Shown one piece after another: positions 18,032 to 45,669 of a stretch of DNA of 64,000 nucleotides; positions within the stretch are counted from its first letter, which is position 1; the number at the start of each line of letters is the position of its first letter. The notes beneath the pieces were generated by a model. It was not told where the DNA came from. It worked only from the letters and a program-made list of their open reading frames with translations, and made no database searches. The position numbers and the translations under genes are program-made. The stretch is from Desulfobacteraceae bacterium (GTDB taxonomy: Bacteria; Desulfobacterota; Desulfobacteria; Desulfobacterales; UBA5852): assembly GCA_014237395.1 (NCBI GenBank), contig JABZFP010000029.1, positions 50,537 through 114,536 of the forward strand, read 5' to 3'.

Positions 18032-19138
18032 CTACCGCTTGCCGGGCCACAAGCCACGCATTAGCCGTGCGGGAAGCGGGTCCGCGGATGTCAGGGCCCC
18101 GTGAGGGCAGACTTCGATGCAGCAGTAACAGCGGATACAGCGGTTGTAGTCAAAGCGAAGACGATCGTCACGGCATTGAATGGCGTCGGCCGGGCAGTAT
18201 TGCCAGCACTCCCCGCACAGGCGGCACTTATCGACGTCGGCCACCGGCCGTCGCAGCAGATGACGGCGCAGGAGGGGCTGCAGCCATCCCGGACCGAAGC
18301 GCGCCGTGCCGGCCTCCGGCAACCTGAAGGCGATGCGGTCCGGCCCGTCGCCGGTGATACGGGCAGGATCGTGAGAAATACCGAGGATTTCGGCCGCAGC
18401 CAGGGTCGGCAGCCCCTCCGGGGGCATGCCGATCAGGTCGCACACGGCATGGTCGGCGGCAAAGGCACTCCGGCTGCCGATCAGAAGCCCCAGCGGCACC
18501 GGCCGGCCGGCCTTACCCGGCCCATCGCCGTCCATCCCCAGGATGCCGTCGATCACCGTAAAGGCCGGTGCAATCGCCTGATGGATCTGGACGATCAGCC
18601 TGGCGAACAGGGTCTTGTCGAGCCCGGCCCGCATGTGCCATTCGGGTTTTTTAAGACCCACCACACAGCCGAAGGTATTTTTCACCCCCAGGGTCAGGGT
18701 CATCTGGCTGTGGGTCTTGAATTTCGCCAGGTTGATCACCGCGTCCGCTTCCAGGGCCTGCCGGGCCAACGGCACCTCCCGGAAAGGCGGTCCGATGTCC
18801 ACGATGGTCTCGGTGTCGAATGCCTGGAAGGGGACATCCAGATCCTTCAAGGCCTCGCGGTAGCCGCCGAGTCTGCCGATACGGGACATGCTGCCCACCG
18901 CCGGACTGTCGGCAATGACGGGCCGACCCCCGTGGTCCTGGACAAACTGGACCACCGCCCGCACCACCTGTGGATGGGTGGTCACCGCCTGCTCCGGCTT
19001 GGCTGCCAGCAGCAGGTTGGGCTTGATCAGCACACGCCCCCGGGCGATGGGGCCGACGCCTCCTGCTGTGAGCATGGTGTAAATGGCGGTCTTCAGTGTG
19101 TCGTCATAGGCCGCTCGACGAATGTCAACGTCAGCCAT
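18032..19138 (-). CDS. DUF362 domain protein with C-terminal 4Fe-4S ferredoxin-type domain
   Basis: 368 aa with VLIKPNLL...THPQVVRAVV typical of DUF362. C-terminus carries CRLCGECWQYCP and CIRCYCCIEVCP. Confidence 0.75.
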   Translation of the reverse strand: MADVDIRRAAYDDTLKTAIYTMLTAGGVGPIARGRVLIKPNLLLAAKPEQAVTTHPQVVRAVVQFVQDHGGRPVIADSPAVGSMSRIGRLGGYREALKDLDVPFQAFDTETIVDIGPPFREVPLARQALEADAVINLAKFKTHSQMTLTLGVKNTFGCVVGLKKPEWHMRAGLDKTLFARLIVQIHQAIAPAFTVIDGILGMDGDGPGKAGRPVPLGLLIGSRSAFAADHAVCDLIGMPPEGLPTLAAAEILGISHDPARITGDGPDRIAFRLPEAGTARFGPGWLQPLLRRHLLRRPVADVDKCRLCGECWQYCPADAIQCRDDRLRFDYNRCIRCYCCIEVCPHGALTSADPLPARLMRGLWPGKR

Positions 19139-29900: not shown

Positions 29901-31868
29901 TTAGGCCGACAGTTGCTGACGGTCGGTCATGTCCATCAGGACCCGCTCGCGGGCCTTGTCGATACCGAGCGCCTTGCGCTTGGCATCGATGTGGGCAATC
30001 ATCATGCGGGCCATCTCATAAGGATCCGGGGTGAAGCCCCATTTCCCCAATCCTTGTTCTTCAAGCCCCTTGAAGAGGTGCCTGTGGAACTTGGTTTCTT
30101 CAACAATGGGGAAGGTCACCCCAAACACGGTGTAAACACCGGACGCCACGAAATACTGCCCGATGCAGATGGCTTTCTCGCTCATCCATTCGGGGGCGGC
30201 GCCGGCCACCGGCAGATCGGCAATGCTCTCACCGAGACCACCAGTCTTGACCATCTCGGAAGCCGCGATCAGAATCCGGCTGTTGTCGACGCAGGACCCG
30301 ATGCCCAGAACAGGCGGCATACCGACCGTCTCGCACACTTCCTTGAGGCCGCTGCCGGCCAGATGTGCGGCCTCCGGCGTGCACAGACCGGCCTTGGCCA
30401 GCGCAATCTGAGAACAGCCGGTCTGCAGCACCAGGACGTCGTTCTTGATCAGTTCCTTGACCAGCTCGACATGCACCCAGTCCTGTTTGACCCGGGGGTT
30501 GGTGCAGCCCACGACCCCGGCCACGCCGCGGATGCGGCCGTTGATGATGTTGTCGTTCAGTGGGGTGTAGGAACCACGAAAGGTGCCGCCCAGCATGTAG
30601 TTGATGTATTCGTGGGAAAAACCATGCACGCCAGCGTGGGTGTTCTTGGGGATTTCAATTTCACACGTACGGTTCTTGAAACGATGAATGGCTTTGATCA
30701 CCATGGCATCGGTGCAATCCCGCGGGGTATGCTCATGGAACTCGATATGCTCGGCCCCTTCGATGTGGCAACGCGGGTTGGTGGTGAAAAGCGGGGTCTT
30801 GTAGCAGTCGGCCACGGCCACCAGCCCCTGCTTGATGCACTGCACGTCCACACACATGGCATCCACGGCCCCGGTCACCAGGACCGTCTCGGTGGACATG
30901 AAGTTGCCGGCATGAGGAATGCCGTGCCGCACCATCATTTCTGCCCCGGAGCAGCACATGCCCACCAGGTTGATGCCCTTGGCGCCGGCGTCTTTGGCTT
31001 TTTGCACGATCATGGGATCCGTGACCGAAACCAGCATGGACTCGAACAGGTTAGGCTCATGGCCGTGGACGATCACATTGACCTGATCCTCCTTGAGCAC
31101 GCCCATGTCGACATCCACGGCCACCGGGGTGGGGGTACCGAACAGGATGTCGGCGATCTCGGTGGCCACCATGGAGCCGCCCCAGCCGTCCGCCAATGCC
31201 GTGCGGCTGCACTGTTTGGTGATGTTCTCGTAGTGCTGGTCCACCCCCATGTGGGTGCGGTGCATGAGTTCCATGATCTCCCGCATGGCGCCGCGGGGCA
31301 CGATGCCGAGTTTGCGCCAGGTCTCAAGGGTTTTGGCCGGAACCCGTTTGGCAAAGGGGATCTCGCCTTCGACCTGGATGTAGGTGCGTTCCAGCTCGTG
31401 ATAAAGATCGGTAGCAATCTCTTTGACGCTGCGGCCTTCGGTTTCAATCCCGATTTCCTGGGCCACGCTTTCCAGTTTCTGGACATCCTTGATCTCGTAA
31501 TCCAGGATCTTGCCGTTCACCACTTCACGGAAGAGGTCCAGCATGCTCATACCGTGGTCGGTATGGGCTGACCCACCGGCCGCCACCATACGGGCAAAAT
31601 TGCGGGCCATGATCGTGTCGATGGTGGCGCCACAGACACCGACTTTGTCGTAGGGCGCGTTGGCATTCAGCCGGCAGGGCCCCATGGAACAGTGTTTACA
31701 GCAGGCGGAATTGGCACCGATCGGGCAGGCTTTCATGTTGGCGGCACGATCGAAAGCGGTTTCGACCCCATCCCGTTTGGCCTTTTCAAGCATCTGGGCG
31801 GTGGAATCGCAAATGGTCACGTCCTTGGTGACAATCTCCTTCTTGGAGACGATTTTCTTCTTTTCCAT
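29901..31868 (-). CDS. cooS: anaerobic Ni-Fe carbon-monoxide dehydrogenase catalytic subunit
   Basis: 655 aa. N-terminal D/B-cluster cysteines CPIGANSACCKHCSMGPCRL, with HGHEP, GMCCSG and other typical CooS blocks. Confidence 0.93.
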   Translation of the reverse strand: MEKKKIVSKKEIVTKDVTICDSTAQMLEKAKRDGVETAFDRAANMKACPIGANSACCKHCSMGPCRLNANAPYDKVGVCGATIDTIMARNFARMVAAGGSAHTDHGMSMLDLFREVVNGKILDYEIKDVQKLESVAQEIGIETEGRSVKEIATDLYHELERTYIQVEGEIPFAKRVPAKTLETWRKLGIVPRGAMREIMELMHRTHMGVDQHYENITKQCSRTALADGWGGSMVATEIADILFGTPTPVAVDVDMGVLKEDQVNVIVHGHEPNLFESMLVSVTDPMIVQKAKDAGAKGINLVGMCCSGAEMMVRHGIPHAGNFMSTETVLVTGAVDAMCVDVQCIKQGLVAVADCYKTPLFTTNPRCHIEGAEHIEFHEHTPRDCTDAMVIKAIHRFKNRTCEIEIPKNTHAGVHGFSHEYINYMLGGTFRGSYTPLNDNIINGRIRGVAGVVGCTNPRVKQDWVHVELVKELIKNDVLVLQTGCSQIALAKAGLCTPEAAHLAGSGLKEVCETVGMPPVLGIGSCVDNSRILIAASEMVKTGGLGESIADLPVAGAAPEWMSEKAICIGQYFVASGVYTVFGVTFPIVEETKFHRHLFKGLEEQGLGKWGFTPDPYEMARMMIAHIDAKRKALGIDKARERVLMDMTDRQQLSA

Positions 31869-32104: not shown

Positions 32105-32967
32105 ATCTTGTTTTATAGCAAATCCAGATGTGCCGGAGAGCGAATTTCCGATGCAGAATACAATCTAATTGGTGGAAAGCCTCTGTTTTATATAGATAAT
32201 CCATATCATTTCAAACAATTCGAGGATCCCCCATGGTCTGCCGATCCATAGCGCTTCACAGGCACGGGGAACCGTCTTTTTTCATATCTTGAGACATTTT
32301 CCCGATACACTTACGATGCGAAGCGAAGCAATTCTATTAATTTTAAATAACCAATAATAACAATTCGTTATAAAATAATAAAAAATATTTTGCGCCCCAT
32401 TGTCATTTAAGAAACGTATCTTGAGGCCGCATATGGCGTTGCACCAAAACCGTCATTTTTCTGTGGTTTCATGAAAATCACGTATCAAACAGGTTACCGT
32501 AACTTACCCATTAGCTTAAAATGATAACTATTCCTATTATCATTAGCGGTTATGACACCGCGATGTCAAGTACCAAGGTGGATCTATTTGTCTTCGCAAG
32601 ACACTTGTGTATCACTGAAAACTCGATACACTTTACTGCGGTGATCCAACGACATCGAATTCGGGTTCCAACCCCCAGTGTACCCTTTTAAGGAAATGAC
32701 CATGTCCGCATCCCAGTCCAACCGATGGACCAACAGCCGCCGCCTGGTCCACGCTGTTGGGAAATCCCCGGGGCGGAGAACCCCCGGCTATCGGTCCGGC
32801 GCACCCGCGCCTGACGGTCAACCGGCTCCTTTTCAGTCTGTCATGGGATGGATTTTGGCATTGAAAGAACGCCGTAATTATAATATTCACGAAACCAATA
32901 CGGGGCGGATACGCGCCTCGGGTATGCACTGCGATTGTGTTCCCTCCCAGCGAAAGGATGTACGCAC

Positions 32968-33222
32968 ATGAGCGACAAACCAGTCAAAGTCTATTCCCTG
33001 AGCACCTGCAGCCATTGCAAAGCCACCAAAAAACTGCTGGATGAATGCACCATCCAGTTTGATTTCGTCGATGTCGATCTGCTCGAGGGCGAAGAACGCA
33101 AGGCCATGGTGGAAGAGGTCAAAGCCGTCAACGAACGCTGTTCCTTCCCCACCATCATCATCGGCGACAAAACCATCGTCGGCTACAAGGAAAAAGAGAT
33201 CAAGGAGGCGCTGGGCATGTAA
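32968..33222 (+). CDS. glutaredoxin-like / NrdH-like small thioredoxin-fold protein
   Basis: From ATG 32968 (RBS gaaagga): MSDKPVKVYSLSTCSHCKATKKLL...FPTIIIGDKTIVGY, with a CxxC active site. Confidence 0.85.
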   Translation: MSDKPVKVYSLSTCSHCKATKKLLDECTIQFDFVDVDLLEGEERKAMVEEVKAVNERCSFPTIIIGDKTIVGYKEKEIKEALGM

Positions 33223-33554
33223 TGGACGTCGAAAAGCTTTATGCCATGCTTGAAAAAACCCAGACCGCCCAGGGGTATTTCTTCAATGCCGACCGGGAGC
33301 GGACCATGGAACTGCTGGAAGCGCTCCTGAAAAACAAGGACCGTTACGGCTACATGGTCTGCCCCTGCCGTCTGTCCTCCGGTGACCGGGAAAACGACAA
33401 GGACATCATTTGTCCCTGTGTTTACCGCGCACCGGATGTCGAAAAATACGGCAGTTGCTACTGCAACCTCTACGTTTCCAAGGCCTGGAACGACGGCACC
33501 ATCGACCGTGACTTCGTCCCTGAACGGCGCCCGCCGGAGAAAATCATGTTCTGA
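33222..33554 (+). CDS. ferredoxin:thioredoxin reductase catalytic-subunit-like protein
   Basis: 110 aa with CPCR...CPC...CYC spacing characteristic of FTR beta. The third motif is CYC instead of CHC. The start overlaps the glutaredoxin stop. Confidence 0.8.
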   Translation: MDVEKLYAMLEKTQTAQGYFFNADRERTMELLEALLKNKDRYGYMVCPCRLSSGDRENDKDIICPCVYRAPDVEKYGSCYCNLYVSKAWNDGTIDRDFVPERRPPEKIMF

Positions 33555-33632: not shown

Positions 33633-33773
33633 GAAGTTGATTGCACGCGTTTCATCGTGGTTCAGCGCAAGGCGCGCGGTTGGCTGCAAGCGGAGCATAC
33701 GCGGGTATGTGAGCATTGCGGCCGGCCGTGCAACACCGTGCTGTGCCGCGAGGTGACGCGTGCAATCAACTTC
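33633..33773. repeat. structured palindromic repeat, copy R3
   Basis: Perfect 18-bp arms GAAGTTGATTGCACGCGT (33633-33650) / ACGCGTGCAATCAACTTC (33756-33773). Core has gcaaggcgcgc, hairpin GCATAC-gcgg-GTATGT (33695-33710) and gtgcaacacc. The right arm ends on the first nt of the nqrF stop codon. Confidence 0.75.
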
Positions 33774-34993
33774 TATCCGAAGTCGTCGAACGCAATCATC
33801 TCCCGCTCAACCCCCAATGCATCCAGCATGTTCATGACAGCGCTGATCATCATCGGTGGTCCGCAGAGATAATACTCGATCTCGGTGGGGTCTTCGTGGT
33901 CTTTCAGATAGAGATCGTGGGCCGCCTGGTGAATGAACCCCGTGGGGCCGTCCCAGTTGTCTTCCGGCTGGGGTTCCGAAAGTGCCACGTGGTAGCTGAA
34001 ATTGGAAAAACGCGCCTGCAGGTCCTTGAACTCCTCGTCGTAGAACATCTCCTGGCGCGAGCGGGCGCCGTACCAGAAGGTCACCTTGCGGGACGTTCCC
34101 AGATCCAGCAACTGGTTGAAAATATGGCAGCGCATGGGGGCCATGCCGGCGCCGCCCCCGATGAAACACATCTCCCGGTCGGTGTCCTTCACAAAAAAAT
34201 CGCCATAGGGGCCGCTCAGGACCACCCGGTCACCAGGCTTCAGGTTGAACACATAGGAGGATCCCACGCCGGGCGGCAAATCCATCTGACCCGGGGGCGG
34301 TGTGGCAATCCGGATCGTAAACCGCAGGAGGCCCTTTTCCGAAGGCGGGTTGGCCAGCGAGTAAGCCCGGTTGACCGGAACATCCGTACCCGCTTTGAGG
34401 GACAGGAAGTTAAACTGTTTCCAGGCGGTCCGGTAGGCGTCGGCAACGGAGAACTCGGCAAAATCCGCCTGGTATTCCGGCACATCGATCTGCATGTAAG
34501 CCCCCGCCGTGAAGTCCACCGCTTCACCCTCGTCCAGCTTCAGCACCAGTTCTTTGATGAAGGTGGCCACGTTGTCGTTGGAGACCACGGTGGCATTGAA
34601 TTTCTGAATATTGAAGATCTCTTCCGGAACACGGATCTTTAGATCCTGCTTGACTTTCAGCTGGCAGGCCAGGCGTACGTGATCGAGGCGTTCCTTGCGG
34701 CTGACCAGCGACAATTCCGTCGGGAGAATATCGCCGCCGCCTTCATCCACCTGGCACTTGCAGGTGCCGCAGGTGCCCTTGCCGCCACATGCACAGGGAA
34801 TCAGGATGTCGTTGTCGAGCAGCGAGGCCAGGAGAGTTTTGTTGGTGGGCGTGGATATGGATTTATCGTCATCGTCATTGATGACGATGCGGCGGTCCCC
34901 TTTGATCACCACTCGGGCTTCCACGAGCAGGAGCGTCCCCACCAGGAGCAGGATCACCGATAAAAATACCGCCGTACTGATAAAATAAATCAC
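33773..34993 (-). CDS. nqrF: Na+-translocating NADH:quinone oxidoreductase subunit F
   Basis: 406 aa with an N-terminal TM, the 2Fe-2S ferredoxin motif CACGGKGTCGTCKC and an FAD/NADH-binding FNR-like domain (RAYSLAN, GGGAGMAP). Confidence 0.93.
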   Translation of the reverse strand: MIYFISTAVFLSVILLLVGTLLLVEARVVIKGDRRIVINDDDDKSISTPTNKTLLASLLDNDILIPCACGGKGTCGTCKCQVDEGGGDILPTELSLVSRKERLDHVRLACQLKVKQDLKIRVPEEIFNIQKFNATVVSNDNVATFIKELVLKLDEGEAVDFTAGAYMQIDVPEYQADFAEFSVADAYRTAWKQFNFLSLKAGTDVPVNRAYSLANPPSEKGLLRFTIRIATPPPGQMDLPPGVGSSYVFNLKPGDRVVLSGPYGDFFVKDTDREMCFIGGGAGMAPMRCHIFNQLLDLGTSRKVTFWYGARSRQEMFYDEEFKDLQARFSNFSYHVALSEPQPEDNWDGPTGFIHQAAHDLYLKDHEDPTEIEYYLCGPPMMISAVMNMLDALGVEREMIAFDDFG

Positions 34994-35043: not shown

Positions 35044-35652
35044 CTAAAGCGTAATCCCGGAAAAGAGCATAAAGGCCATGGCCATCAGGCCGGTGGTAAT
35101 CATGTTGATGCCAAAGCCCTGCAGCCCTTCGGGCACATCGGCGTAACGCAGCTTTATCTTGATCGTGGCCATGGACACGATGGCCAGCAGCCAGCCGATG
35201 CCGGACCCCACACCGTAGACAACCGTCTCGGCAAACGTATAGGAACGCTCCACCATAAAAAGGGATACCCCCAGCACAGCGCAATTGACCGTAATCAGCG
35301 GCAGAAAAACCCCCAGGGCATTATAGAGGGCCTGGGAATAGCGGTCGATCACCATCTCCACCATCTGGACAATGCCGGCGATGATGGCGATGAACAGGAT
35401 CAGCTTGAGAAAACTCAAATCCACATCCGGCAGCCCCGCCCAGGCCAGGGCTCCCGGCGCCAGCAGGTAACGATAGATCAGCCAGTTGACCGGCGTGGTG
35501 ATAGTCAGCACGAAGACCACGGCGATGCCGAGCCCCAATGAAGTTTGGAGATTCTTGGACACCGCCAGAAAGGAGCACATGCCCAGGAAGTAGGCCAGCA
35601 GAATATTGCCGACAAAGACGGAATCGACAAAAATGCTGATGAGGTTTTCCAT
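35044..35652 (-). CDS. nqrE: Na+-translocating NADH:quinone oxidoreductase subunit E
   Basis: 202-aa polytopic protein with [10 protein letters not shown] and the NqrE/RnfA family pattern, in operon order. Confidence 0.9.
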
Positions 35653-35663
35653 ACGGATGGTCC

Positions 35664-36296
35664 TTAGCGGTTCAAAATGGCGTGCTCGAGCCAGACAAAC
35701 AGGCCGATCACGATAAAGGCGCCCGGTGCCAGCAGCATCAGGCCCATGTCCATATACCCCATGTCATACAACGCCTGGGGCACCACCGGAAACCCCAGGA
35801 TCTTGCCCGACCCCAGCAGCTCCCGGAAAAACGAGACGCCCACCAGGATCGAGCCATACCCGATGCCGTTGGCCATGCCGTCCACAAACGATTTCAAAGG
35901 GGGGTTCGACATGGCAAAGGTTTCAGCGCGCCCCATGACGATGCAGTTGGTGATGATCAGCCCCACGAAAACCGACAACTGCTTGCTGATATTGTACATG
36001 AAAGCTTTCAGCACCTCGTCCGCGATGATGACCAGGGTGGCGATCACGGCCACTTCCACGATAATGCGGATATTGCGGGGAATCATCTTGCGCATCAGCG
36101 AAATGATCAGATTCGAGCAGGCCACCACGGCCGTGAGCGCCAGCGCCATGACGATGGCCGTGTTCATCTGTACGGTTACCGCCAGGGAGGAGCAAATGCC
36201 CAGCACCTGTTTGGAGATGGGGTTGTTCTGCCAGAGCGCATCGGAAACCGTGCGGTAGGTTTCCGTACGCGTGATCTTTACGAGGGCGGTTGACAT
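35664..36296 (-). CDS. nqrD: Na+-translocating NADH:quinone oxidoreductase subunit D
   Basis: 210 aa with [17 protein letters not shown] and the NqrD/RnfE family pattern. Confidence 0.9.
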
Positions 36297-37015
36297 ACGA
36301 GTGCGTTCTCCGGAAGCTTGAGCATGCCCTGGTTGCGAAAATGGACGGAAACCGGCTCATAGGTCTGCAGAATGTCTTCCAAGCCCTGGCTCAGGAACTT
36401 GCCGGTCATGGTGGCACCGCTGATGCCGTCGACGTAGTTCGGCTTGAGATCCTGCCGAACGGCATCCTCCACGGCGCCCTTGGCAATTTTGATGGACACG
36501 AAATTCCCTTCGGCATCGATGATCTGCTTCCCCACGAAATTGCGCTGAAACCATTGATTTTCGATTTCGCCGCCCAGACCGGGGGTTTCGGAGTGCTGGT
36601 AAACGGAAAAGCCGGTTATCGTGCTGCCATCCGTATCCAGGGCCAGATAGCCGTAAATGCGACCCCACAGGCCGCGGCTGTCCACCGGGATGATATAGGC
36701 TTTTACTTGCCCGTCGGCCCGGTAGAGGTAGAGCGGCAGGACCTTCTTGGGTGCCGCCTTGGCGGACAGGACCTGCCCTTCGTCGTCGATAGAAATGCAT
36801 TGAATCGAGGATTGATACAGCGCTTTGATCGCGTCGGCCGGATAAGAGCGACCCGATTCCACGGCCCCCACGGCCTGCAGGATATTCTTCTGCCGATCGA
36901 CCAGGGCATTTTCCCGCTGAAACGCCTTGAGGCCGGTGGCCGCCATCGTCAGCAGCAAGCTGCAGACCAGGCAAAGGCCCGTGGCAAACAGGATGGTTTT
37001 AACGCCGTCAGACAT
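36278..37015 (-). CDS. nqrC: Na+-translocating NADH:quinone oxidoreductase subunit C
   Basis: 245 aa with an N-terminal TM anchor and the FMN attachment motif DGISGATMT. Confidence 0.9.
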
Positions 37016-37042: not shown

Positions 37043-37166
37043 GACGACGTTGTGAACCGTTCAAGGTCAAGGCGTGCAAGCGCCAAGGAGTGAGGCGTAC
37101 ACCAGGTACGCCGCAGCGACGCGAAGCGCCGCACAACGCCGAGATTGGGCGGTTCACAACGTCGTC
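37043..37166. repeat. structured palindromic repeat, copy R4 (inside nqr operon)
   Basis: Perfect 17-bp arms GACGACGTTGTGAACCG (37043-37059) / CGGTTCACAACGTCGTC (37150-37166). Central hairpin GGCGTAC-accag-GTACGCC (37094-37112). Fills the nqrB-nqrC gap. Confidence 0.8.
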
Positions 37167-38349
37167 AGACATTGGACATCCTTCGCCGCATGCGCAGCTG
37201 CATCTCGATGTGATCCAGCAACGGGTTGAAAAGGTTCATGAAAAGAATCGCCAGACCCACCCCCTCGGGAAAAGCGGGGTTGAAGACCCGGATCAGAACG
37301 GTCAGCATGCCGCACATGAACCCGTATATCCATTTGACGTGCTTCATGTGAGTGGCCGAAACCGGATCGGTGGTCATATAAACAATGCCGAACGCCGATC
37401 CCCCCATGATCAGATGATAAAACGGATTGAGGGAAAGAAAAGGGGCGGAATCCGGCCCGGCGATGAGATTCAGGAGCGCACCGGTGCAGAGCACCCCTAA
37501 GACGCCCCCCAGGATAATGCGATAACTGGCAATGCCCAGCAGGATGAGGAACAGGCCGCCCAGGACACACAGGAGGGTCGACGTGCCGCCCACGCTGCCC
37601 GGATAAAGACCGCCAAAAAGCTTGAGGGCGCCGTAGCCCACCGAATGCAGGGTTTCTTCCACGGCCTGGCCGGCCGGGGTGGACGCGGAAACGGACAAGG
37701 GCGTTGCGGCCGTGAAGGTATCCACCACGGTGGTGCGCGCGCCGCTCAGGACGGTCCAGACCTGGTCACCGGAAAGACTGACCGGGTAGGCGAAATAAAG
37801 AAAGGCCCGGCCGGTCAGGGCCGGGTTCAAGAAGTTGCGCCCGGTGCCGCCAAAGACTTCCTTACCGATCACGATGCCGAAGGAAATCCCCAAGGCCACC
37901 TGCCACAGCGGGGTTCCGGGAGGCAGTGTCAATGGGAACAGCATGCAGGAAACGAAAAGCCCCTCGCTGATTTCGTGCTTGCGGACAACGGCAAACAGAA
38001 TTTCCCAGGCGAACCCCACCACGTAAGTTACGATCACCATGGGCAGCACGAGCCAGATACCGCTCCAGATCACCGGCAGCAAGTCGGTGGAGAGCCCCGA
38101 GGCAAGCCGCGACTGGAGGCCCGAATTATAGATGCCGAAACACAGGTGCGGAATCAGCGCCACGATCACCAGTGCCATGAAGCGCTTCACGTCCAGGCTG
38201 TCCCGTACGTGGGGAAGCCCCTCGGACCGCTCGACGGGCCCGAAAAAAACGGTTTCGATGGACTCGTAGAACGCATACAGCTTGTGATAGGGTCCCCCCT
38301 CCTCAAACCGGGGCCTCAGATGATGGAATAGGGTGCGGATCGCTTTCAT
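37165..38349 (-). CDS. nqrB: Na+-translocating NADH:quinone oxidoreductase subunit B
   Basis: 394-aa polytopic protein of the NqrB/RnfD family, with DTFTAATPLS at the flavinylation position. Its stop TGA (37167-37165) overlaps the right arm of repeat R4. Confidence 0.9.
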   Translation of the reverse strand: MKAIRTLFHHLRPRFEEGGPYHKLYAFYESIETVFFGPVERSEGLPHVRDSLDVKRFMALVIVALIPHLCFGIYNSGLQSRLASGLSTDLLPVIWSGIWLVLPMVIVTYVVGFAWEILFAVVRKHEISEGLFVSCMLFPLTLPPGTPLWQVALGISFGIVIGKEVFGGTGRNFLNPALTGRAFLYFAYPVSLSGDQVWTVLSGARTTVVDTFTAATPLSVSASTPAGQAVEETLHSVGYGALKLFGGLYPGSVGGTSTLLCVLGGLFLILLGIASYRIILGGVLGVLCTGALLNLIAGPDSAPFLSLNPFYHLIMGGSAFGIVYMTTDPVSATHMKHVKWIYGFMCGMLTVLIRVFNPAFPEGVGLAILFMNLFNPLLDHIEMQLRMRRRMSNV

Positions 38350-38352
38350 GGA

Positions 38353-39696
38353 TCAGGCCTGCTCTTTGCGGTGGGCATGTTTGGCCGCCTGCAGGGTGGC
38401 CGCAAGTTCGATCTTGGACGGGCAGACATAGGTGCACAGGCCGCACTCGACACAGTCCAGAAGACCTTGTGCCAGATATTCCTCCACCTCTTCCGCCAGA
38501 ATGCTCTTGAGGGTCATCTGGGGCCAGATATCCACCGGGCACACATCGGCGCAGTAGCCGCAGGCGATGCAAGCCCGGCGGCCGCCGTTCACATTGGTGG
38601 TCATCGGCAGGGGCGCCCGCCGCAAGGCGGACAGGAAGGTCCGCGAATAGGTGGGCTTGTTGGGGCCGGGGCGGAACAGCGTCAGGAAATCGACGTCACC
38701 CGGTTCCGGCAAGACGGCCAGCGCTGTTTCGTACAGCCCCATGTGGCCCTCCGGATCGCCGGTATAGCCGCGCAAAACGCCGCCCACCAGGTAGCGCGGA
38801 TCCCGGCAGCCAATCTCCCCTGCCAGGTCTTTGATCGGCGCCCCCATCCGCGATGCGACATAGCGCGGCGCGGCCGCCCCGGTGCCGGCAACCGCAAACA
38901 ACCGCGCGGTGGGGTACGCACCGCTTTGCAGCAGTTGCGCCATCAAAAGCAGATCCTGACCGTCGATGAACCAGGCCGTGTTCTCCTCCGGCGACCGGCG
39001 AACCTGGAAAAGCACCACCCCCGGATCGTCGGCCGGGTAACGCCCCTGCACCCTGTGGGTGATGAGTTCCTGGTGCGCTTCGCAAAAGGCCCGATCAGCG
39101 GCATCCGCATGCACATGGACGGTGGGAGACAAGCGTTTAAGGGCCCTGAGTCCCAGCTCGAAAAGCGCACGATTGTTTTCCAAATACCGCGCCGGCGGCA
39201 CCTGAAACGGTTCGCGATGGTCGAGGCTGACGAAAATGGCCGGGGGCACCTGCTCCGGATCCGCAATGTCGCGATACGGCAGGGCCCGCAGCAACGGCCA
39301 CACGCCGCCCGCCAGAAGGTGCGCCACCAGCTCCGCCCGGGGATACCGATCGATTGCGTCCCCGTCCAGAGGCCGGCCCAGGGATGTCACGGGTTCATTT
39401 TCGGCGTCGCGTCGGATGACGATTTCGCGCAAAACGCGCCGTGGTCCGTAATGAATGGCGTCGACCCGTCCACCCCCCGGTGAGAGAAATCGAAATCGCG
39501 GGTTGGTTTTATCGGTGAAAAGCAGATCACCGACAGCGACACGGTCGCCTTCCGCGACTGCCAGACGGGGCCGGACAAAAGGGATATGCTCGGGAAGCAC
39601 GGCCACCGTCGCCGGTAATGCGATCGTCTGCGACGTTTCCAGCGGTGCCCCCTGAATGGGGAGGTCATAGCCTTTGGCGGTTCGAACGGATATCAT
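38353..39696 (-). CDS. nqrA: Na+-translocating NADH:quinone oxidoreductase subunit A, with C-terminal 2x[4Fe-4S]-type Cys motifs
   Basis: 447 aa with an NqrA-type N-terminus (KGYDLPIQGAP...VRPRLAVAEGDRVAVGDLLFTDK). No RnfC GLGGAGFP flavin/NADH motif. The C-terminus has CIACGYCADVCP and CVECGLCTYVCP. Confidence 0.85.
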   Translation of the reverse strand: MISVRTAKGYDLPIQGAPLETSQTIALPATVAVLPEHIPFVRPRLAVAEGDRVAVGDLLFTDKTNPRFRFLSPGGGRVDAIHYGPRRVLREIVIRRDAENEPVTSLGRPLDGDAIDRYPRAELVAHLLAGGVWPLLRALPYRDIADPEQVPPAIFVSLDHREPFQVPPARYLENNRALFELGLRALKRLSPTVHVHADAADRAFCEAHQELITHRVQGRYPADDPGVVLFQVRRSPEENTAWFIDGQDLLLMAQLLQSGAYPTARLFAVAGTGAAAPRYVASRMGAPIKDLAGEIGCRDPRYLVGGVLRGYTGDPEGHMGLYETALAVLPEPGDVDFLTLFRPGPNKPTYSRTFLSALRRAPLPMTTNVNGGRRACIACGYCADVCPVDIWPQMTLKSILAEEVEEYLAQGLLDCVECGLCTYVCPSKIELAATLQAAKHAHRKEQA

Positions 39697-40267: not shown

Positions 40268-41446
40268 ATGGAAGAATGCACCCCAACGGTCAACACCGGA
40301 TTGCGCGGCGTTACGGTGGCGAGCACAAAAATCAGCCATGTGGATGGCGCTGCCGGCAAACTCATTTACCGGGGCTACCTGGTCAAAGATCTGGCCGAAA
40401 GCACCTCCTATGAGGAAGTCGCGCACCTGCTGCTTTATGAGCATCTGCCAAACGCTGAAGAACTGAAGGCGTTCAAGGACTTCCTGGCGCAAAACCGCGC
40501 CTTGCCGGAATCGATCATCACTATTCTCAAAAGCTGCGCCCGCAATGCCAACCCCATGGACATCCTGCAGGGTATCGTATCCTTGATGGCCAGCGACGAC
40601 CCCGACCTGGACGACCGCAACCGTGAGGCCAGCATTCGCAAGGCCAGCCGCCTGATCGCCAAGTTCCCGACCATCATGGCCGCCTGGGATCGCATCCGCA
40701 ACGACAAAGCCCCGGTGGCGCCCAACCCGGAACTCAGCCATGCCGCCAATTTTCTGTACATGCTGAACGGGGAAAAACCGGACGAGGAATTGGCCCGTTT
40801 TTTCGATACTGGACTGGTGCTGCATGCCGAGCACTCGTTTAACGCCTCGACTTTTTCCGCCCGTCAGGTCGCCTCAACGCGGGCCCATATGTACAGTGCC
40901 GTTGCCGCGGCGGTCGGATCCCTGTCCGGCGAACTGCATGGCGGCGCCAATGTGCGCGTCATGGAAATGCTGCTCAAAATCGGCGCTGTGGAAAATGTCG
41001 AGGCCTATGTCCATAGCGAGCTTGAGGCCGGGCGGCTCATTTTCGGACTGGGACATGCCGTCTACCAGACGGACGACCCCCGGGCCCATATTCTGGCGCC
41101 CATGTCCAAAAAAATGGGCGAACGCATCGGCCAACCGCAATGGTATGAAATCTCCCGCGTGCTGGAAAAGCAGGGCAAAGCCATTTTCAAGAAAAGAAAA
41201 GGCATCGACATTTACGTCAATGTGGATTTTTACAGTGCTTCGCTGTACTACGCGATGGGGATTCCGATCGATCTCTTCTCACCCCTTTTCGCCCTGTCGC
41301 GCGTGGCCGGCTGGGCCGCCCACGTCATCGAGGAACAATATGCCGACGCGGCCCCTAAACCGGCCCTGTACCGCCCCAAATCCAGCTACATTGGCGACTA
41401 CTGCGGCCCCGATGAATGCAGCTTCGTTCCCATGGACGAGCGTTGA
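40268..41446 (+). CDS. gltA: citrate synthase (citrate/2-methylcitrate synthase family)
   Basis: 392 aa with GLRGV...S.I..VDG..G.L.YRGY, HAEH and GHAVY catalytic blocks. Confidence 0.9.
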   Translation: MEECTPTVNTGLRGVTVASTKISHVDGAAGKLIYRGYLVKDLAESTSYEEVAHLLLYEHLPNAEELKAFKDFLAQNRALPESIITILKSCARNANPMDILQGIVSLMASDDPDLDDRNREASIRKASRLIAKFPTIMAAWDRIRNDKAPVAPNPELSHAANFLYMLNGEKPDEELARFFDTGLVLHAEHSFNASTFSARQVASTRAHMYSAVAAAVGSLSGELHGGANVRVMEMLLKIGAVENVEAYVHSELEAGRLIFGLGHAVYQTDDPRAHILAPMSKKMGERIGQPQWYEISRVLEKQGKAIFKKRKGIDIYVNVDFYSASLYYAMGIPIDLFSPLFALSRVAGWAAHVIEEQYADAAPKPALYRPKSSYIGDYCGPDECSFVPMDER

Positions 41447-41508
41447 ACGCCCGCGCCTTCGGCAGCGGACCGGCAGGACGACGCATCAACAGGAGGGAAG
41501 AAGAGCTT

Positions 41509-41919
41509 TTGCTGAAAGAACGCAACCTACGCATGACCCGCCAGCGCCAGGTGATTCTTGAAGAATTACGCGCCACGGACCAGCACCCCAGCGCCGATGC
41601 CCTTCACGAACGGGTCAAAAAAAAGCTGCCCCGGATCAGTCTGGGAACCGTCTATCGCAATCTGGAGATTTTGACCGAACTGGGCGAGATCCGGACCATC
41701 GCGCTGGCGGGGAGTTTGAAACGGTTTGACGGCATTCCGCAAAACCACTACCACATGCGCTGCATGCGCTGTGACCGTCTGGTCGACGCGCCCATGGACG
41801 TCGTCGATTCGCTTGAACGCGTATTGCAGGAAAAAACCGAATTCCGCATTTTGAGCCACCAACTGGAGTTCACCGGAATCTGTCCGGACTGCCAGGCCCT
41901 CCTGGACGACAACGCCTAA
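41509..41919 (+). CDS. Fur-family transcriptional regulator
   Basis: LKERNLRMTRQRQVILEEL...HPSADALH, GTVYRNLE, HYHMRCMRCDR and CPDC. I prefer TTG 41509 (RBS aggagg 41491) over the ORF-track start 41416, which overlaps gltA. Confidence 0.8.
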   Translation: MLKERNLRMTRQRQVILEELRATDQHPSADALHERVKKKLPRISLGTVYRNLEILTELGEIRTIALAGSLKRFDGIPQNHYHMRCMRCDRLVDAPMDVVDSLERVLQEKTEFRILSHQLEFTGICPDCQALLDDNA

Positions 41920-45075: not shown

Positions 45076-45669
45076 ATGGCACAGATCACCGCTATCTATG
45101 GCAGTCCGCGGCGACAAGGCAACACGAGCCGCCTTCTCGGACAGGCCGTCGCCGGCGCCCGAGATCAGGGGGCCACCGTCACCGAAATTATTCTGCGGGA
45201 TCTCAGGATATCCCCCTGCTTGGAAATCTACGGCTGCACGGCAGACGGCAACTGCGTCATCAAAGACGATTTCAAACAAGTCCGTGAAAGCCTCTTGGCG
45301 TCCAACGGCATCATGCTGGCCTCACCCATTTTTTTCTACACGGTCAGTGCCCACACCAAAATTTTTATGGATCGATGCCAGTCCCTGTGGGTCAAAAAAT
45401 ACTGGATTGAAAACCTGGCCTTCGGTCAGTGGATATCGACGCGCAAGGGACTGTTCATTTCAGCCGGCGCCACCAAGGGGAAAAAACTTTTCGAAGGCGC
45501 CCTGCTGACGGTCCGCTATTTTTTTGATGTTATCGATACCCATCTTTGGAAATCACTCCTATACCGCGGTCTGGACTTTGAAGACGATGTTCTCGAGCAC
45601 CCGGACTACCTCCAGGAGGCATACAATGCCGGACAATCGTTAGTGATGGCACTTGACAGGGAGCGCTGA
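45076..45669 (+). CDS. flavodoxin-family / iron-sulfur flavoprotein-like NAD(P)H-dependent FMN reductase
   Basis: ITAIYGSPRRQGNTSRLL...PCLEIYGCTADGNCVIKDD...ASPIFFYTVSA. Confidence 0.8.
   Translation: MAQITAIYGSPRRQGNTSRLLGQAVAGARDQGATVTEIILRDLRISPCLEIYGCTADGNCVIKDDFKQVRESLLASNGIMLASPIFFYTVSAHTKIFMDRCQSLWVKKYWIENLAFGQWISTRKGLFISAGATKGKKLFEGALLTVRYFFDVIDTHLWKSLLYRGLDFEDDVLEHPDYLQEAYNAGQSLVMALDRER

What the first reader, a model, noticed from the sequence alone, without database searches (positions are those of the whole stretch)
38353..39696. NqrA that retains RnfC-type 2x[4Fe-4S] cysteine motifs
The operon is a bona fide nqrABCDEF: NqrF has 2Fe-2S and FNR domains, and NqrC has the SGAT flavinylation site. 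Subunit A has the NqrA N-terminal and middle regions and lacks the RnfC GLGGAGFP flavin/NADH motif. Its last ~75 aa (encoded at about 38353-38580) nevertheless carry CIACGYCADVCP and CVECGLCTYVCP, the two ferredoxin-type motifs typical of RnfC. The characterised Vibrio NqrA is described as cofactor-less. An FeS-bearing NqrA would look like an evolutionary intermediate between Rnf and Nqr, and it might give this complex an additional electron entry or exit site, for example ferredoxin.
Basis: partly seen in the sequence, partly recalled or inferred. Interest (0 to 1): 0.55.

Follow-up and report, generated by a model that had tools for sequence, protein, structure and literature searches.

The report
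Sodium-pump NqrA subunit keeping iron-sulfur motifs
This sulfate-reducer relative has a genuine NADH:quinone sodium pump (Nqr) whose subunit A, always described as cofactor-free, keeps both iron-sulfur cluster motifs of its Rnf ancestor; the same is true of a large, multi-phylum branch of NqrA that I found described in no paper I could search.

Summary
Window 39696..38353 (minus strand) encodes a 447-aa NqrA, the first gene of a complete nqrABCDEF operon. Residues 376-387 (CIACGYCADVCP) and 415-426 (CVECGLCTYVCP) form a canonical 2x[4Fe-4S] ferredoxin domain colinear with the RnfC C-terminus. By profile, fold and operon context the protein is an NqrA, not an RnfC, and it lacks the RnfC FMN/NAD loop.

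The feature is not peculiar to this genome:
- All 119 intact close homologues keep the 8 Cys.
- So do 60 of 126 other full-length representatives of 50%-identity clusters, from Desulfobacterota, Riflebacteria, Marinamargulisbacteria and unnamed lineages, each checked one in a full nqr operon.
- Rare partial forms keep exactly one complete ligand set.
- In the query's clade the ferredoxin domain is the most conserved part of the protein.

Most likely the clusters are real, sit beside the NqrB riboflavin as in Rnf, and act as an accessory relay or electron buffer in an NADH:menaquinone Na+ pump. A second electron exit or entry is not excluded. Whether the Cys were lost once or several times is unresolved.

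The parts
38353..39696 (-). nqrA, 447 aa: NQRA_N + NQRA_2nd + (marginal) NQRA_SLBB + C-terminal 2x[4Fe-4S] ferredoxin domain
   Evidence: ORF. Pfam and NCBIfam. End-to-end match to V. cholerae NqrA, E=5e-50. The AF2 model (pLDDT 84.8) is closest to Vibrio NqrA, TM 0.84-0.87.
38404..38586 (-). Ferredoxin-type dicluster domain (aa 371-431), homologous to the RnfC C-terminal Fd domain
   Evidence: Fer4_17, Fer4_7, Fer4_9 and Fer4 are above their gathering scores. TIGR01945 RnfC positions 362-434 of 435 match with E=4e-24. PDB RnfC chains 7zc6_C, 9eri_C and 8ahx_C match only this region, E about 1e-8. Identity to the query across 86 homologues is 83% here against about 50% elsewhere.
38536..38571 (-). 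Motif 1, CIACGYCADVCP (C376, C379, C382, C386)
   Evidence: Coordinates verified. All four Cys are invariant in 86 aligned homologues.
38419..38454 (-). Motif 2, CVECGLCTYVCP (C415, C418, C421, C425)
   Evidence: Coordinates verified. All four Cys are invariant in 86 aligned homologues. Only C421 and C425 survive in Vibrio NqrA.
39274..39309 (-). Loop GGVWPLLRALPY (aa 130-141), occupying the position of the RnfC FMN-binding loop G(L/M)GGAxFP
   Evidence: Alignment with four RnfC/RsxC sequences and other NqrAs. G131, W133 and P140 are conserved in both 8-Cys and Cys-poor NqrAs.
37165..38349 (-). nqrB, 394 aa: FMN-attachment Thr (TAAT, aa 213-216) and riboflavin ligands conserved
   Evidence: NF003756 477.6 bits, cutoff 414. 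In the alignment to Vibrio NqrB, G198, N200, N203, A205 and D346 are identical, T162 is Ser, G141 is Phe and F159 is Leu.
36278..37015 (-). nqrC, 245 aa, with the SGAT flavinylation motif at aa 199-202
   Evidence: TIGR01938 188.6 bits, cutoff 144. Motif located.
35664..36296 (-). nqrD, 210 aa, with Cys 35 and Cys 118 in the conserved membrane motifs that would ligate the intramembrane [2Fe-2S]
   Evidence: NF006777 289.8 bits, cutoff 235. Cys positions. The ligand role is inferred from the Vibrio structures (PMC10643135).
35044..35652 (-). nqrE, 202 aa, with Cys 26 and Cys 124 in the equivalent motifs
   Evidence: TIGR01940 309.3 bits, cutoff 247.55. Cys positions.
33773..34993 (-). nqrF, 406 aa: membrane anchor, [2Fe-2S] ferredoxin domain (C69-x5-C75-x2-C78), FAD and NADH domains. 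This is the NADH entry site
   Evidence: TIGR01941 585.5 bits, cutoff 295. Fer2, FAD_binding_6 and NAD_binding_1. Cys pattern.

Best explanation
This is the A subunit of a genuine Na+-translocating NADH:quinone oxidoreductase. It belongs to a large subfamily, found in several phyla, that I did not find described in any paper I could search. In that subfamily NqrA lost the FMN/NAD(H) site of its RnfC ancestor but kept RnfC's C-terminal ferredoxin domain with two [4Fe-4S] clusters.

Proposed mechanism:
1. NADH is oxidised at NqrF.
2. Electrons run FAD -> [2Fe-2S] of NqrF -> [2Fe-2S] of NqrD/E -> FMN of NqrC -> FMN of NqrB -> riboflavin of NqrB, pumping Na+ as in Vibrio.
3. The two NqrA clusters sit on the cytoplasmic face of NqrB within electron-transfer distance of the riboflavin, as the RnfC clusters do in Rnf.
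4. They act as a short accessory side branch: a one-electron reservoir or relay that also holds the C-terminal domain together. Menaquinone at the NqrB/NqrA interface remains the terminal acceptor.

What is shown and what is inferred:
- Shown here: the identity of all six subunits; the motifs and their strong conservation; absence of the FMN loop; conservation of the riboflavin ligands; the wide distribution of the variant.
- Inferred from homology with solved Rnf structures: cluster binding and proximity to the riboflavin.
- Inferred without direct support: the accessory/buffer role and menaquinone as acceptor.
For: Identity of the protein and operon.

Cluster binding is likely:
- There are two canonical CxxCxxCxxxCP motifs, above the Pfam gathering scores.
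- All 8 Cys are invariant in 86 homologues with 61% mean column identity, and 19 of the 49 invariant columns fall in aa 371-428.
- The Fd domain is 83% identical to the query against about 50% for the rest of the protein.
- All 119 intact close homologues keep 8 Cys. So do 60 of 126 other full-length 50%-cluster representatives and 60 loci counting the window region.
- Partial forms keep CCCC-xxxC or xxxC-CCCC. By the classical dicluster-ferredoxin ligation scheme (established knowledge) each of these is exactly one complete cluster.

Wiring to the riboflavin:
- In Rnf the riboflavin of RnfD lies 11.7 A from the nearer RnfC cluster (PMC9588780).
- The NqrB riboflavin ligands are conserved here.

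Still an NADH:quinone pump:
- NqrF is intact.
- The loop GxWxxxRxxP, which replaces the FMN loop, is shared with Vibrio-type NqrA.
- Every locus that is long enough is a colinear nqrABCDEF, including the most divergent 8-Cys lineages L010 and L011.

Accessory rather than obligatory:
- Whole lineages lost the Cys yet kept the operon.
- Both one-cluster patterns exist.
- No partner gene recurs with 8-Cys operons outside the query's lineage.
Against: - No metal, EPR or activity data exist for any such NqrA.
Cluster-riboflavin and cluster-quinone distances therefore could not be measured.
- The very strong conservation of the Fd domain is more than a dispensable side branch would seem to need, and would also fit an essential on-path role.
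- At the Vibrio quinone/inhibitor site, this NqrB has Phe for G141 and Leu for F159. The quinone site may therefore differ, although Cys-poor operons also often have Leu or Ala at position 141.
- Ferredoxin-type clusters are often too low in potential to be reduced downstream of the coupling steps (own knowledge).
Confidence: 0.5

Rival explanations
1. The NqrA clusters form a working second electron exit or entry. One version: electrons leave the NqrB riboflavin through the two [4Fe-4S] clusters to an acceptor other than the NqrB-bound quinone, such as a soluble ferredoxin-like or thiol-redox protein. Another version: quinone is reduced at the remodelled former FMN pocket of NqrA. In either case this type of NQR is not mechanistically equivalent to the Vibrio enzyme.
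For: - In Rnf the homologous clusters are on-path between the riboflavin and the cytoplasmic substrate site.
- The Fd domain is the most conserved part of the protein.
- NqrB differs at the Vibrio quinone-site positions 141 and 159.
- In Vibrio the quinone pocket has some contribution from NqrA (PMC12682751).
- In the query's lineage, a pair of genes for a ferredoxin:thioredoxin-reductase-like protein and a glutaredoxin-like protein lies just downstream in 13 of 27 eligible loci.
- Desulfobacteraceae already have an Rnf2 whose RnfC lacks the NADH domain and needs an unknown partner (PMC5109826).
Against: - No candidate partner is linked to 8-Cys operons outside one lineage, and the FTR/Grx pair is convergently transcribed.
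- Position 141 of NqrB does not track NqrA type cleanly: 8-Cys operons have F/L/G at 38/9/4, Cys-poor operons have G/L/A/F/I at 9/8/5/2/1.
- Both one-cluster loss patterns occur, so at least one of them breaks a two-cluster wire.
- Ferredoxin reduction by NADH is uphill, and ferredoxin input at NqrA would drive the core backwards (inference).
Confidence: 0.27
2. The Cys motifs are kept only for structure, or bind no cluster at all (an empty or zinc-bound relic), with no redox role.
For: - Many lineages dispense with the Cys while keeping the same domain fold and the operon.
- Cys-poor NqrAs still conserve the last two Cys and the surrounding LCxxxCPSK without being able to hold a cluster.
- Off-pathway clusters needed only for stability are known elsewhere, for example N7 of bacterial complex I (own knowledge).
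Against: - All eight ligands and the Pro after each motif are conserved across sequences that have diverged to about 30% identity.
- Losses respect complete ligand sets.
- A cluster sitting about 12 A from a redox-cycling riboflavin would exchange electrons with it whatever it was 'for' (inference).
Confidence: 0.15
3. The ferredoxin domain is not ancestral. It was re-acquired by recombination of a Cys-poor nqrA with an rnfC gene, or the gene is a miscalled Rnf/Nqr hybrid.
For: - The NqrB tree rooted on RnfD places Cys-poor operons at the base and the main 8-Cys clade as derived.
- Desulfobacterales also carry rnf operons.
Against: - Distances in the Fd domain and in the N-terminal part are correlated among 8-Cys NqrAs (r=0.65, Mantel p=0.001).
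- With the Cys columns removed, the 8-Cys Fd domain is closer to Cys-poor NqrA C-termini (0.66) than to RnfC (0.74). Re-acquisition predicts about 0.84.
- The domain boundaries are colinear with Vibrio NqrA.
- The operon has NqrF and no RnfB.
Confidence: 0.05

Closest known systems
NqrA of Vibrio cholerae Na+-NQR (PDB 7XK3, 8A1U, 4U9O)
   Same: Same family, fold and position in the operon: end-to-end alignment with E=5e-50, TM 0.84-0.87, the same N-terminal and second domains, and the same loop replacing the FMN site. Its C-terminal domain is homologous and retains the last two Cys.
   Different: The Vibrio protein has lost six of the eight Cys (state MIYM-LLCC) and is cofactor-free according to the structures (PMC12174285; PMC9588780). 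The window protein keeps all eight. Identity is only about 28%.
RnfC of the Rnf complex (PDB 7ZC6, 9ERI, 8AHX; E. coli RsxC)
   Same: A homologous C-terminal 2x[4Fe-4S] ferredoxin domain with identical Cys spacing, a homologous overall fold (TM 0.65-0.70), and attachment to the RnfD/NqrB subunit beside the riboflavin.
   Different: RnfC has the NuoF-like FMN/NAD(H) site with the loop G(L/M)GGAxFP and works with RnfB. The window protein has neither the loop nor any Complex1_51K match, and its operon has NqrF instead of RnfB.
Rnf2-type RnfC of Desulfobacteraceae (Desulfobacula toluolica Tol2 type)
   Same: It is also an RnfC-family subunit from the same bacterial group that is reported to keep its Fe-S part while lacking the NADH-binding and soluble-ligand-binding domains. 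Its redox partner is therefore unknown (PMC5109826; PMC11887813).
   Different: It belongs to an rnf operon with an enlarged, NAD-binding RnfB, not to an nqr operon with NqrF. I did not compare sequences directly.
Off-pathway cluster N7 of bacterial complex I (NuoG/Nqo3)
   Same: A [4Fe-4S] cluster conserved in some lineages and absent in others, regarded as an evolutionary remnant that matters for stability and not for the main electron path (own knowledge, not tested here). It is a functional analogy for the accessory reading.
   Different: An unrelated protein and fold. N7 is too far from the main chain to exchange electrons, whereas the NqrA clusters are expected to lie close to the riboflavin.

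Membership tests
NqrA (Na+-NQR subunit A) | N-terminal barrel-sandwich hybrid domain (Pfam NQRA_N) and second alpha/beta domain (NQRA_2nd) | tested here: met
   NQRA_N 82.6 bits and NQRA_2nd 105.2 bits, both with a cutoff of 25.
NqrA (Na+-NQR subunit A) | NQRA_SLBB domain | tested here: inconclusive
   26.6 bits against a cutoff of 27. The fold is present in the model.
NqrA (Na+-NQR subunit A) | Reaches a curated full-length equivalog score (TIGR01936 / NF003761) | tested here: not met
   TIGR01936 scores 254.5 against 321.05. NF003761 scores 388.5 against 450, although it aligns aa 3-446 to model positions 4-448 of 449. [quoted passage not shown]
NqrA (Na+-NQR subunit A) | Fold of the solved NqrA | tested here: met
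   Foldseek TM 0.84-0.87 to 7xk3_A and 8a1y_A, ranked above all RnfC chains.
NqrA (Na+-NQR subunit A) | First gene of a colinear nqrABCDEF operon with an NqrF-type NADH dehydrogenase subunit | tested here: met
   The same holds in all related loci that are long enough.
NqrA (Na+-NQR subunit A) | No redox cofactor, as stated for NqrA in the literature | tested here: not met
   Two complete 4-Cys motifs above the Fer4 gathering scores. This is the point of departure from the described family. Actual cluster binding was not testable.
RnfC | NuoF-like FMN/NAD(H)-binding domain with the Gly-rich loop G(L/M)GGAxFP | tested here: not met
   No Complex1_51K or RnfC_N match. The loop is replaced by GGVWPLLRALPY. 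TIGR01945 matches only aa 373-445, at 84.9 bits against a cutoff of 245.95.
RnfC | C-terminal 2x[4Fe-4S] ferredoxin domain | tested here: met
RnfC | Encoded with RnfB (polyferredoxin) in an rnf operon | tested here: not met
   The sixth gene is NqrF (TIGR01941, 585.5 bits). No RnfB or second RnfC is found in the window.
Bacterial-type 2x[4Fe-4S] ferredoxin domain | Two CxxCxxCxxxCP motifs and a match to the Fer4 dicluster profiles | tested here: met
Bacterial-type 2x[4Fe-4S] ferredoxin domain | Actually binds two [4Fe-4S] clusters | not testable with these tools
   Needs metal analysis, EPR or a structure. Supported indirectly by conservation and by the ligand-set pattern of losses.
Na+-NQR complex | Cofactor sites of the core: NqrF [2Fe-2S]/FAD/NADH, the FMN-attachment Thr in NqrB and NqrC, the four Cys of NqrD/E, and the riboflavin site in NqrB | tested here: met
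   (sequence level only).
Na+-NQR complex | Quinone pocket of NqrB as in Vibrio (G140, G141, F159) | tested here: inconclusive
   G140 is kept, G141 is Phe and F159 is Leu. Position 141 also varies in Cys-poor operons.
Na+-NQR complex | NADH:quinone oxidoreduction coupled to Na+ export | not testable with these tools
   Biochemical assay needed.

The most novel reading that the evidence does not exclude
In the cluster-bearing NQRs the two [4Fe-4S] centres of NqrA are the working electron output of the pump. Electrons would leave the NqrB riboflavin through NqrA either to a quinone bound in the remodelled former FMN pocket or to a soluble or peripheral acceptor. These enzymes, widespread in sulfate reducers and several candidate phyla, would then be a mechanistically distinct third type between Rnf and the Vibrio-type Nqr. 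The Vibrio arrangement, with riboflavin passing electrons directly to a quinone in NqrB, would be a later short-circuit that made the clusters dispensable. That would also give a rationale for the long-disputed reports of quinone binding by NqrA.
Probability: 0.22. Interest if true: 0.85.

Novelty: new variant of a known kind. Interest (0 to 1): 0.6.

Why it matters
The function of NqrA is an acknowledged open question. [quoted passage not shown] Every account of how Nqr arose from Rnf assumes NqrA simply lost its cofactors.

This work suggests that a large branch of the family, at least 61 of about 398 NqrA clusters at 50% identity, still carries both cluster motifs under strong selection, with rare one-cluster forms in between. 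Three consequences follow:
- It gives living representatives of the Rnf-to-Nqr transition.
- It offers a direct experimental handle on what NqrA does: EPR and Cys variants in a cultured carrier such as Desulfonema magnum.
- It bears on where Nqr originated.

It also matters for models of energy conservation in marine sulfate reducers, where Nqr is currently drawn as a Vibrio-like NADH:quinone pump. Finally, it matters for annotation, because these proteins fall below the NqrA equivalog cutoffs and are often named only by their Fe-S domain.

Tried and rejected
1. Co-variation between NqrA type and the NqrB quinone site. Position 141 is Phe, Leu or Gly in 8-Cys operons (38/9/4) and Gly, Leu, Ala, Phe or Ile in Cys-poor ones (9/8/5/2/1). 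That is a tendency confounded by phylogeny, so I do not use it as evidence.

2. Search for a redox partner by gene neighbourhood. Citrate synthase, Fur, the FTR-like/Grx-like pair and an FMN-reductase-type flavoprotein recur only in loci whose NqrA scores at least about 340-410 bits against the query. They are absent from distant 8-Cys operons, so this is lineage synteny and not a family-wide link.

3. Polarity of Cys loss. An NqrA tree without the Fd domain gave a neat picture, with an 8-Cys basal grade and one derived Cys-poor clade (76/100 and 33-37/40 replicates). The NqrB tree of the same operons contradicts it (1/40) and the concatenation is split (17-25/40). I therefore do not claim a single loss or a root position.

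4. Cluster geometry. The model coordinates are not exposed and the Fd domain has pLDDT 50-68, so no distances could be measured.

5. Which RnfC cluster (motif 1 or motif 2) faces the riboflavin. This is not stated in the Rnf structure papers I could read, so the one-cluster forms cannot be labelled proximal or distal.

Names for the most divergent 8-Cys group were not available.

7. A link between the clusters and strict anaerobiosis or menaquinone use. I rejected it as a simple rule: Marinamargulisbacteria, which have an 8-Cys NqrA, are described as aerobes, and the menaquinone-reducing Prevotella NQR is modelled without NqrA cofactors.

8. P0029, an apparent close homologue without the Fd domain, is a frameshifted record. 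Its tail matches the alternative frame of this window.
Full report
**The observation.** The minus-strand ORF 39696..38353 encodes a 447-aa protein followed directly by five more genes: 38349..37165, 37015..36278, 36296..35664, 35652..35044 and 34993..33773. Pfam and NCBIfam identify them as NqrA-F. NqrB, C, D, E and F each exceed at least one curated equivalog cutoff, and NqrF scores 585.5 bits against 295. NqrA carries NQRA_N (82.6 bits) and NQRA_2nd (105.2 bits), and at aa 375-429 a ferredoxin dicluster domain for which four Pfam models pass their gathering scores. The two motifs are CIACGYCADVCP (aa 376-387, nt 38536-38571) and CVECGLCTYVCP (aa 415-426, nt 38419-38454). They hold eight of the protein's ten Cys. 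The RnfC model TIGR01945 matches only aa 373-445, and it aligns them to its own C-terminal positions 362-434 of 435.

**NqrA or RnfC?** Vibrio cholerae NqrA aligns end to end (query 6-436 to chain 4-436, E=5e-50). The three solved RnfC chains align only over the last 70 residues, with E about 1e-8. An AlphaFold2 model built on 86 homologues (mean pLDDT 84.8; above 90 for residues 1-330, 50-68 for the Fd domain) is closest to Vibrio NqrA (TM 0.84-0.87). RnfC comes next at 0.65-0.70. I aligned the protein with E. coli RsxC and with the A. vinelandii, C. tetanomorphum and A. woodii RnfC sequences rebuilt from the PDB alignments. In that alignment the FMN loop G(L/M)GGAxFP is replaced by G-x-W-x-x-x-(R/K)-x-x-P, both in the query and in every other NqrA shown, with or without Cys. 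The protein is therefore an NqrA that lacks the RnfC flavin/NAD site and keeps RnfC's ferredoxin domain. In Vibrio the same C-terminal domain is recognisably homologous but retains only the last two Cys.

**How common is it?**
- Of the 120 closest 90%-cluster representatives (50-98% identity), 116 have both full motifs. Three others changed only the Pro after the fourth Cys. One (P0029) is a frameshifted record whose tail matches the alternative frame of this window.
- In an alignment of 86 of them, all eight Cys are among only 49 invariant columns. The Fd domain is 83% identical to the query against about 50% for the rest of the protein.
- A search of 1.84 billion 50%-identity representatives found 398 with E<1e-30. 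Of the 127 full-length sequences aligned from the best 150 (the query included), 61 have all eight Cys. Six have five Cys, in the patterns CCCC-xxxC or xxxC-CCCC, and one truncated sequence has six. The rest have 0-3, most often the Vibrio-like last pair.
- In a classical dicluster ferredoxin each cluster is held by the first three Cys of one motif plus the fourth Cys of the other (established knowledge). The two five-Cys patterns are therefore exactly the two ways of keeping one complete cluster.
- Named carriers of the 8-Cys form include Desulfobacterales/Thermodesulfobacteriota (among them cultured Desulfonema magnum, P0092), Candidatus Riflebacteria and Candidatus Marinamargulisbacteria. 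One-cluster forms come from Elusimicrobiota and Gemmatimonadota.
- The window's own organism is an uncultured Desulfobacterales bacterium; a MAG is 96% identical.
- A metagenome scan gave 80 further loci. Every one that is long enough is a colinear nqrABCDEF, and 60 loci in all carry an 8-Cys NqrA. The most divergent 8-Cys lineages checked individually (L010, and L011 from Riflebacteria) also have an NqrF-type sixth gene.

[quoted passage not shown] That naming probably arises because they fall below the NqrA equivalog cutoffs: TIGR01936 scores 254.5 against 321, and NF003761 scores 388.5 against 450 despite aligning end to end. I found no paper that discusses it.
- The evolutionary study of Nqr says the critical cofactor residues of NqrA 'have been lost', and notes only 'anomalous' sulfate-reducer branches (PMC4014512).
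- The Rnf and Nqr structure papers and the 2025 review state that NqrA is devoid of FMN and [4Fe-4S] clusters and has no assignable function (PMC9588780; PMC12174285; PMC11889175).
- Genome and proteome papers on Desulfobacteraceae and Margulisbacteria treat their Nqr as Vibrio-like.
- Of the 22 papers in the library that contain both 'NqrA' and '4Fe-4S', none that I opened, and no other title or abstract, describes a cluster-bearing NqrA.

The library does not cover most subscription journals, so prior mention elsewhere cannot be excluded.

**Ancestral or re-acquired?** Among the 61 8-Cys sequences (the query and 60 representatives), pairwise distances in the Fd domain (Cys columns removed) correlate with those in the N-terminal 360 residues (r=0.65, Mantel p=0.001). 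The 8-Cys Fd domain lies at 0.74 from RnfC and 0.66 from the Cys-poor NqrA C-termini, while the Cys-poor C-termini lie at 0.84 from RnfC. This intermediate position fits vertical retention. Secondary capture from an rnfC gene would instead put the 8-Cys domain about as far from the Cys-poor C-termini as RnfC is. The 8-Cys state is thus the plesiomorphic state of NqrA.

**How many losses?** How many times the Cys were lost is not settled.
- An NJ tree of the non-ferredoxin 360 residues rooted on RnfC shows the 8-Cys forms as a basal grade and the Cys-poor forms as one nested clade, with the xxxC-CCCC forms at its base. Support is 76/100 on 134 taxa and 33-37/40 on the 81 locus taxa.
- The NqrB tree of the same operons rooted on RnfD puts the root among Cys-poor operons and interleaves 8-Cys lineages. 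A pure Cys-poor clade appears in 1/40 replicates. Concatenation gives 17-25/40.
- With outgroups at about 0.83 p-distance and only distance methods available, I regard the root as unresolved.

**How it probably works.** In Rnf, the electron passes from the riboflavin of RnfD to the nearer RnfC cluster (11.7 A), then to the second cluster and to FMN (PMC9588780). In Vibrio Nqr the riboflavin of NqrB hands the electron directly to ubiquinone 11.6 A away, at the rim of NqrB (PMC10643135). The window's NqrB keeps the riboflavin ligands (Vibrio G198, N200, N203, A205 and D346 identical; T162 is Ser) and the FMN-attachment Thr. NqrC has SGAT, NqrD and NqrE each have the two membrane Cys, and NqrF has its [2Fe-2S], FAD and NADH modules.

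The simplest reading is that the core works as in Vibrio and that two [4Fe-4S] centres hang on the riboflavin as they do in Rnf, but with no flavin or NAD site behind them. I favour (about 0.5) an accessory role: a short side branch that stores or relays single electrons and stabilises the domain that clamps NqrB, with menaquinone as the acceptor. The reasons are:
- Several lineages lost the Cys while keeping the operon.
- Both one-cluster patterns exist, so at least one of them cannot be a continuous wire.
- No partner gene travels with 8-Cys operons across phyla.

The strength of conservation keeps a true second exit, or quinone reduction via NqrA, alive as a rival (about 0.27). So do the altered residues at the Vibrio quinone site (G141 to Phe, F159 to Leu). 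A purely structural or empty relic (about 0.15) and secondary acquisition (about 0.05) are less likely.

**Verdict.** The finding is real and correctly read as an NqrA retaining the RnfC cluster motifs. It is not a peculiarity of this genome. It is one member of a large subfamily that databases detect but that I found discussed in no paper I could search. It contradicts the standard statement that NqrA is cofactor-free, and it offers natural intermediates between Rnf and Nqr. I rate it a new variant of a known kind, with interest 0.6. The functional consequence remains to be shown experimentally.

Noticed in passing
window 32935-33554 (+), convergent with the end of nqrF: A glutaredoxin-family protein (95 aa, CSHC) is followed, with overlapping stop and start codons, by a ferredoxin:thioredoxin reductase catalytic-subunit-like protein (110 aa; FeThRed_B, E=3e-22). 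The FTR-like gene lies just downstream of nqrF in 13 of 27 eligible 8-Cys loci (the glutaredoxin-like one in 12 of 27). All of these are in the query's own lineage. It is absent from 18 Cys-poor loci and from distant 8-Cys loci.
   Followed up: partly
window 40268-41446 (+) and 41416-41919 (+), divergent from nqrA: Citrate synthase and a Fur-family regulator sit upstream of nqrA. The arrangement is conserved in 26 and 23 of 40 eligible 8-Cys loci respectively, and in none of 15 Cys-poor loci. Whether the Fur-type regulator controls this iron-rich pump was not examined.
   Followed up: partly
loci L001-L091 and the window, downstream of nqrF: The flavin [11 protein letters not shown] gene apbE follows nqrF in 12 of 18 Cys-poor operons and in the one one-cluster operon, but in only 3 of 27 8-Cys operons. 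No apbE homologue occurs anywhere in the 64-kb window (tblastn).
   Followed up: partly
NqrA alignment columns equivalent to window aa 420-428 (nt 38413-38439): Cys-poor NqrAs, Vibrio included, still conserve the last two Cys and the surrounding LCxxxCPSK at 90% or more across both types, although these two Cys would belong to different clusters. No explanation is known to me.
   Followed up: no
window 37165-38349 (-), NqrB aa 113 and 131: At the positions of Vibrio NqrB G141 and F159 (quinone/inhibitor pocket) this NqrB has Phe and Leu. A bulky residue at 141 is the rule in 8-Cys operons (47 of 51) but is also frequent in Cys-poor ones.
   Followed up: yes
window 38353-39696 (-); NCBIfam scores: The NqrA equivalog models are not reached (TIGR01936 254.5 against 321; NF003761 388.5 against 450). 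[quoted passage not shown]
   Followed up: partly
protein P0029 (NCBI, 312-kb contig), compared with window 38303-38572 (-): A 75%-identical NqrA record appears to lack the Fe-S domain. Its C-terminal 60 residues match the +1-frame ORF of this window, so it is a frameshift (sequencing error or pseudogene) and not a natural Cys-free variant.
   Followed up: yes
window 29901-31868 (-): A 655-aa CooS-type carbon monoxide dehydrogenase (Prismane/CODH family, E=5e-167) lies about 2 kb beyond the nqr operon. It is also present near nqr in 9 related loci, consistent with a Wood-Ljungdahl complete oxidiser.
   Followed up: no
window 45076-45669 (+): An FMN-reductase-fold protein (FMN_red, E=1e-18) with a Cys-rich insert (CLEIYGCTADGNC), resembling iron-sulfur flavoproteins. 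It recurs near nqr in 14 of 31 eligible 8-Cys loci of the same lineage.
   Followed up: no
window about 18104-18244 (-): A second ferredoxin-type Cys-motif region gave a weak tblastn hit to the RnfC Fd domain (E=2e-4). It was not examined.
   Followed up: no
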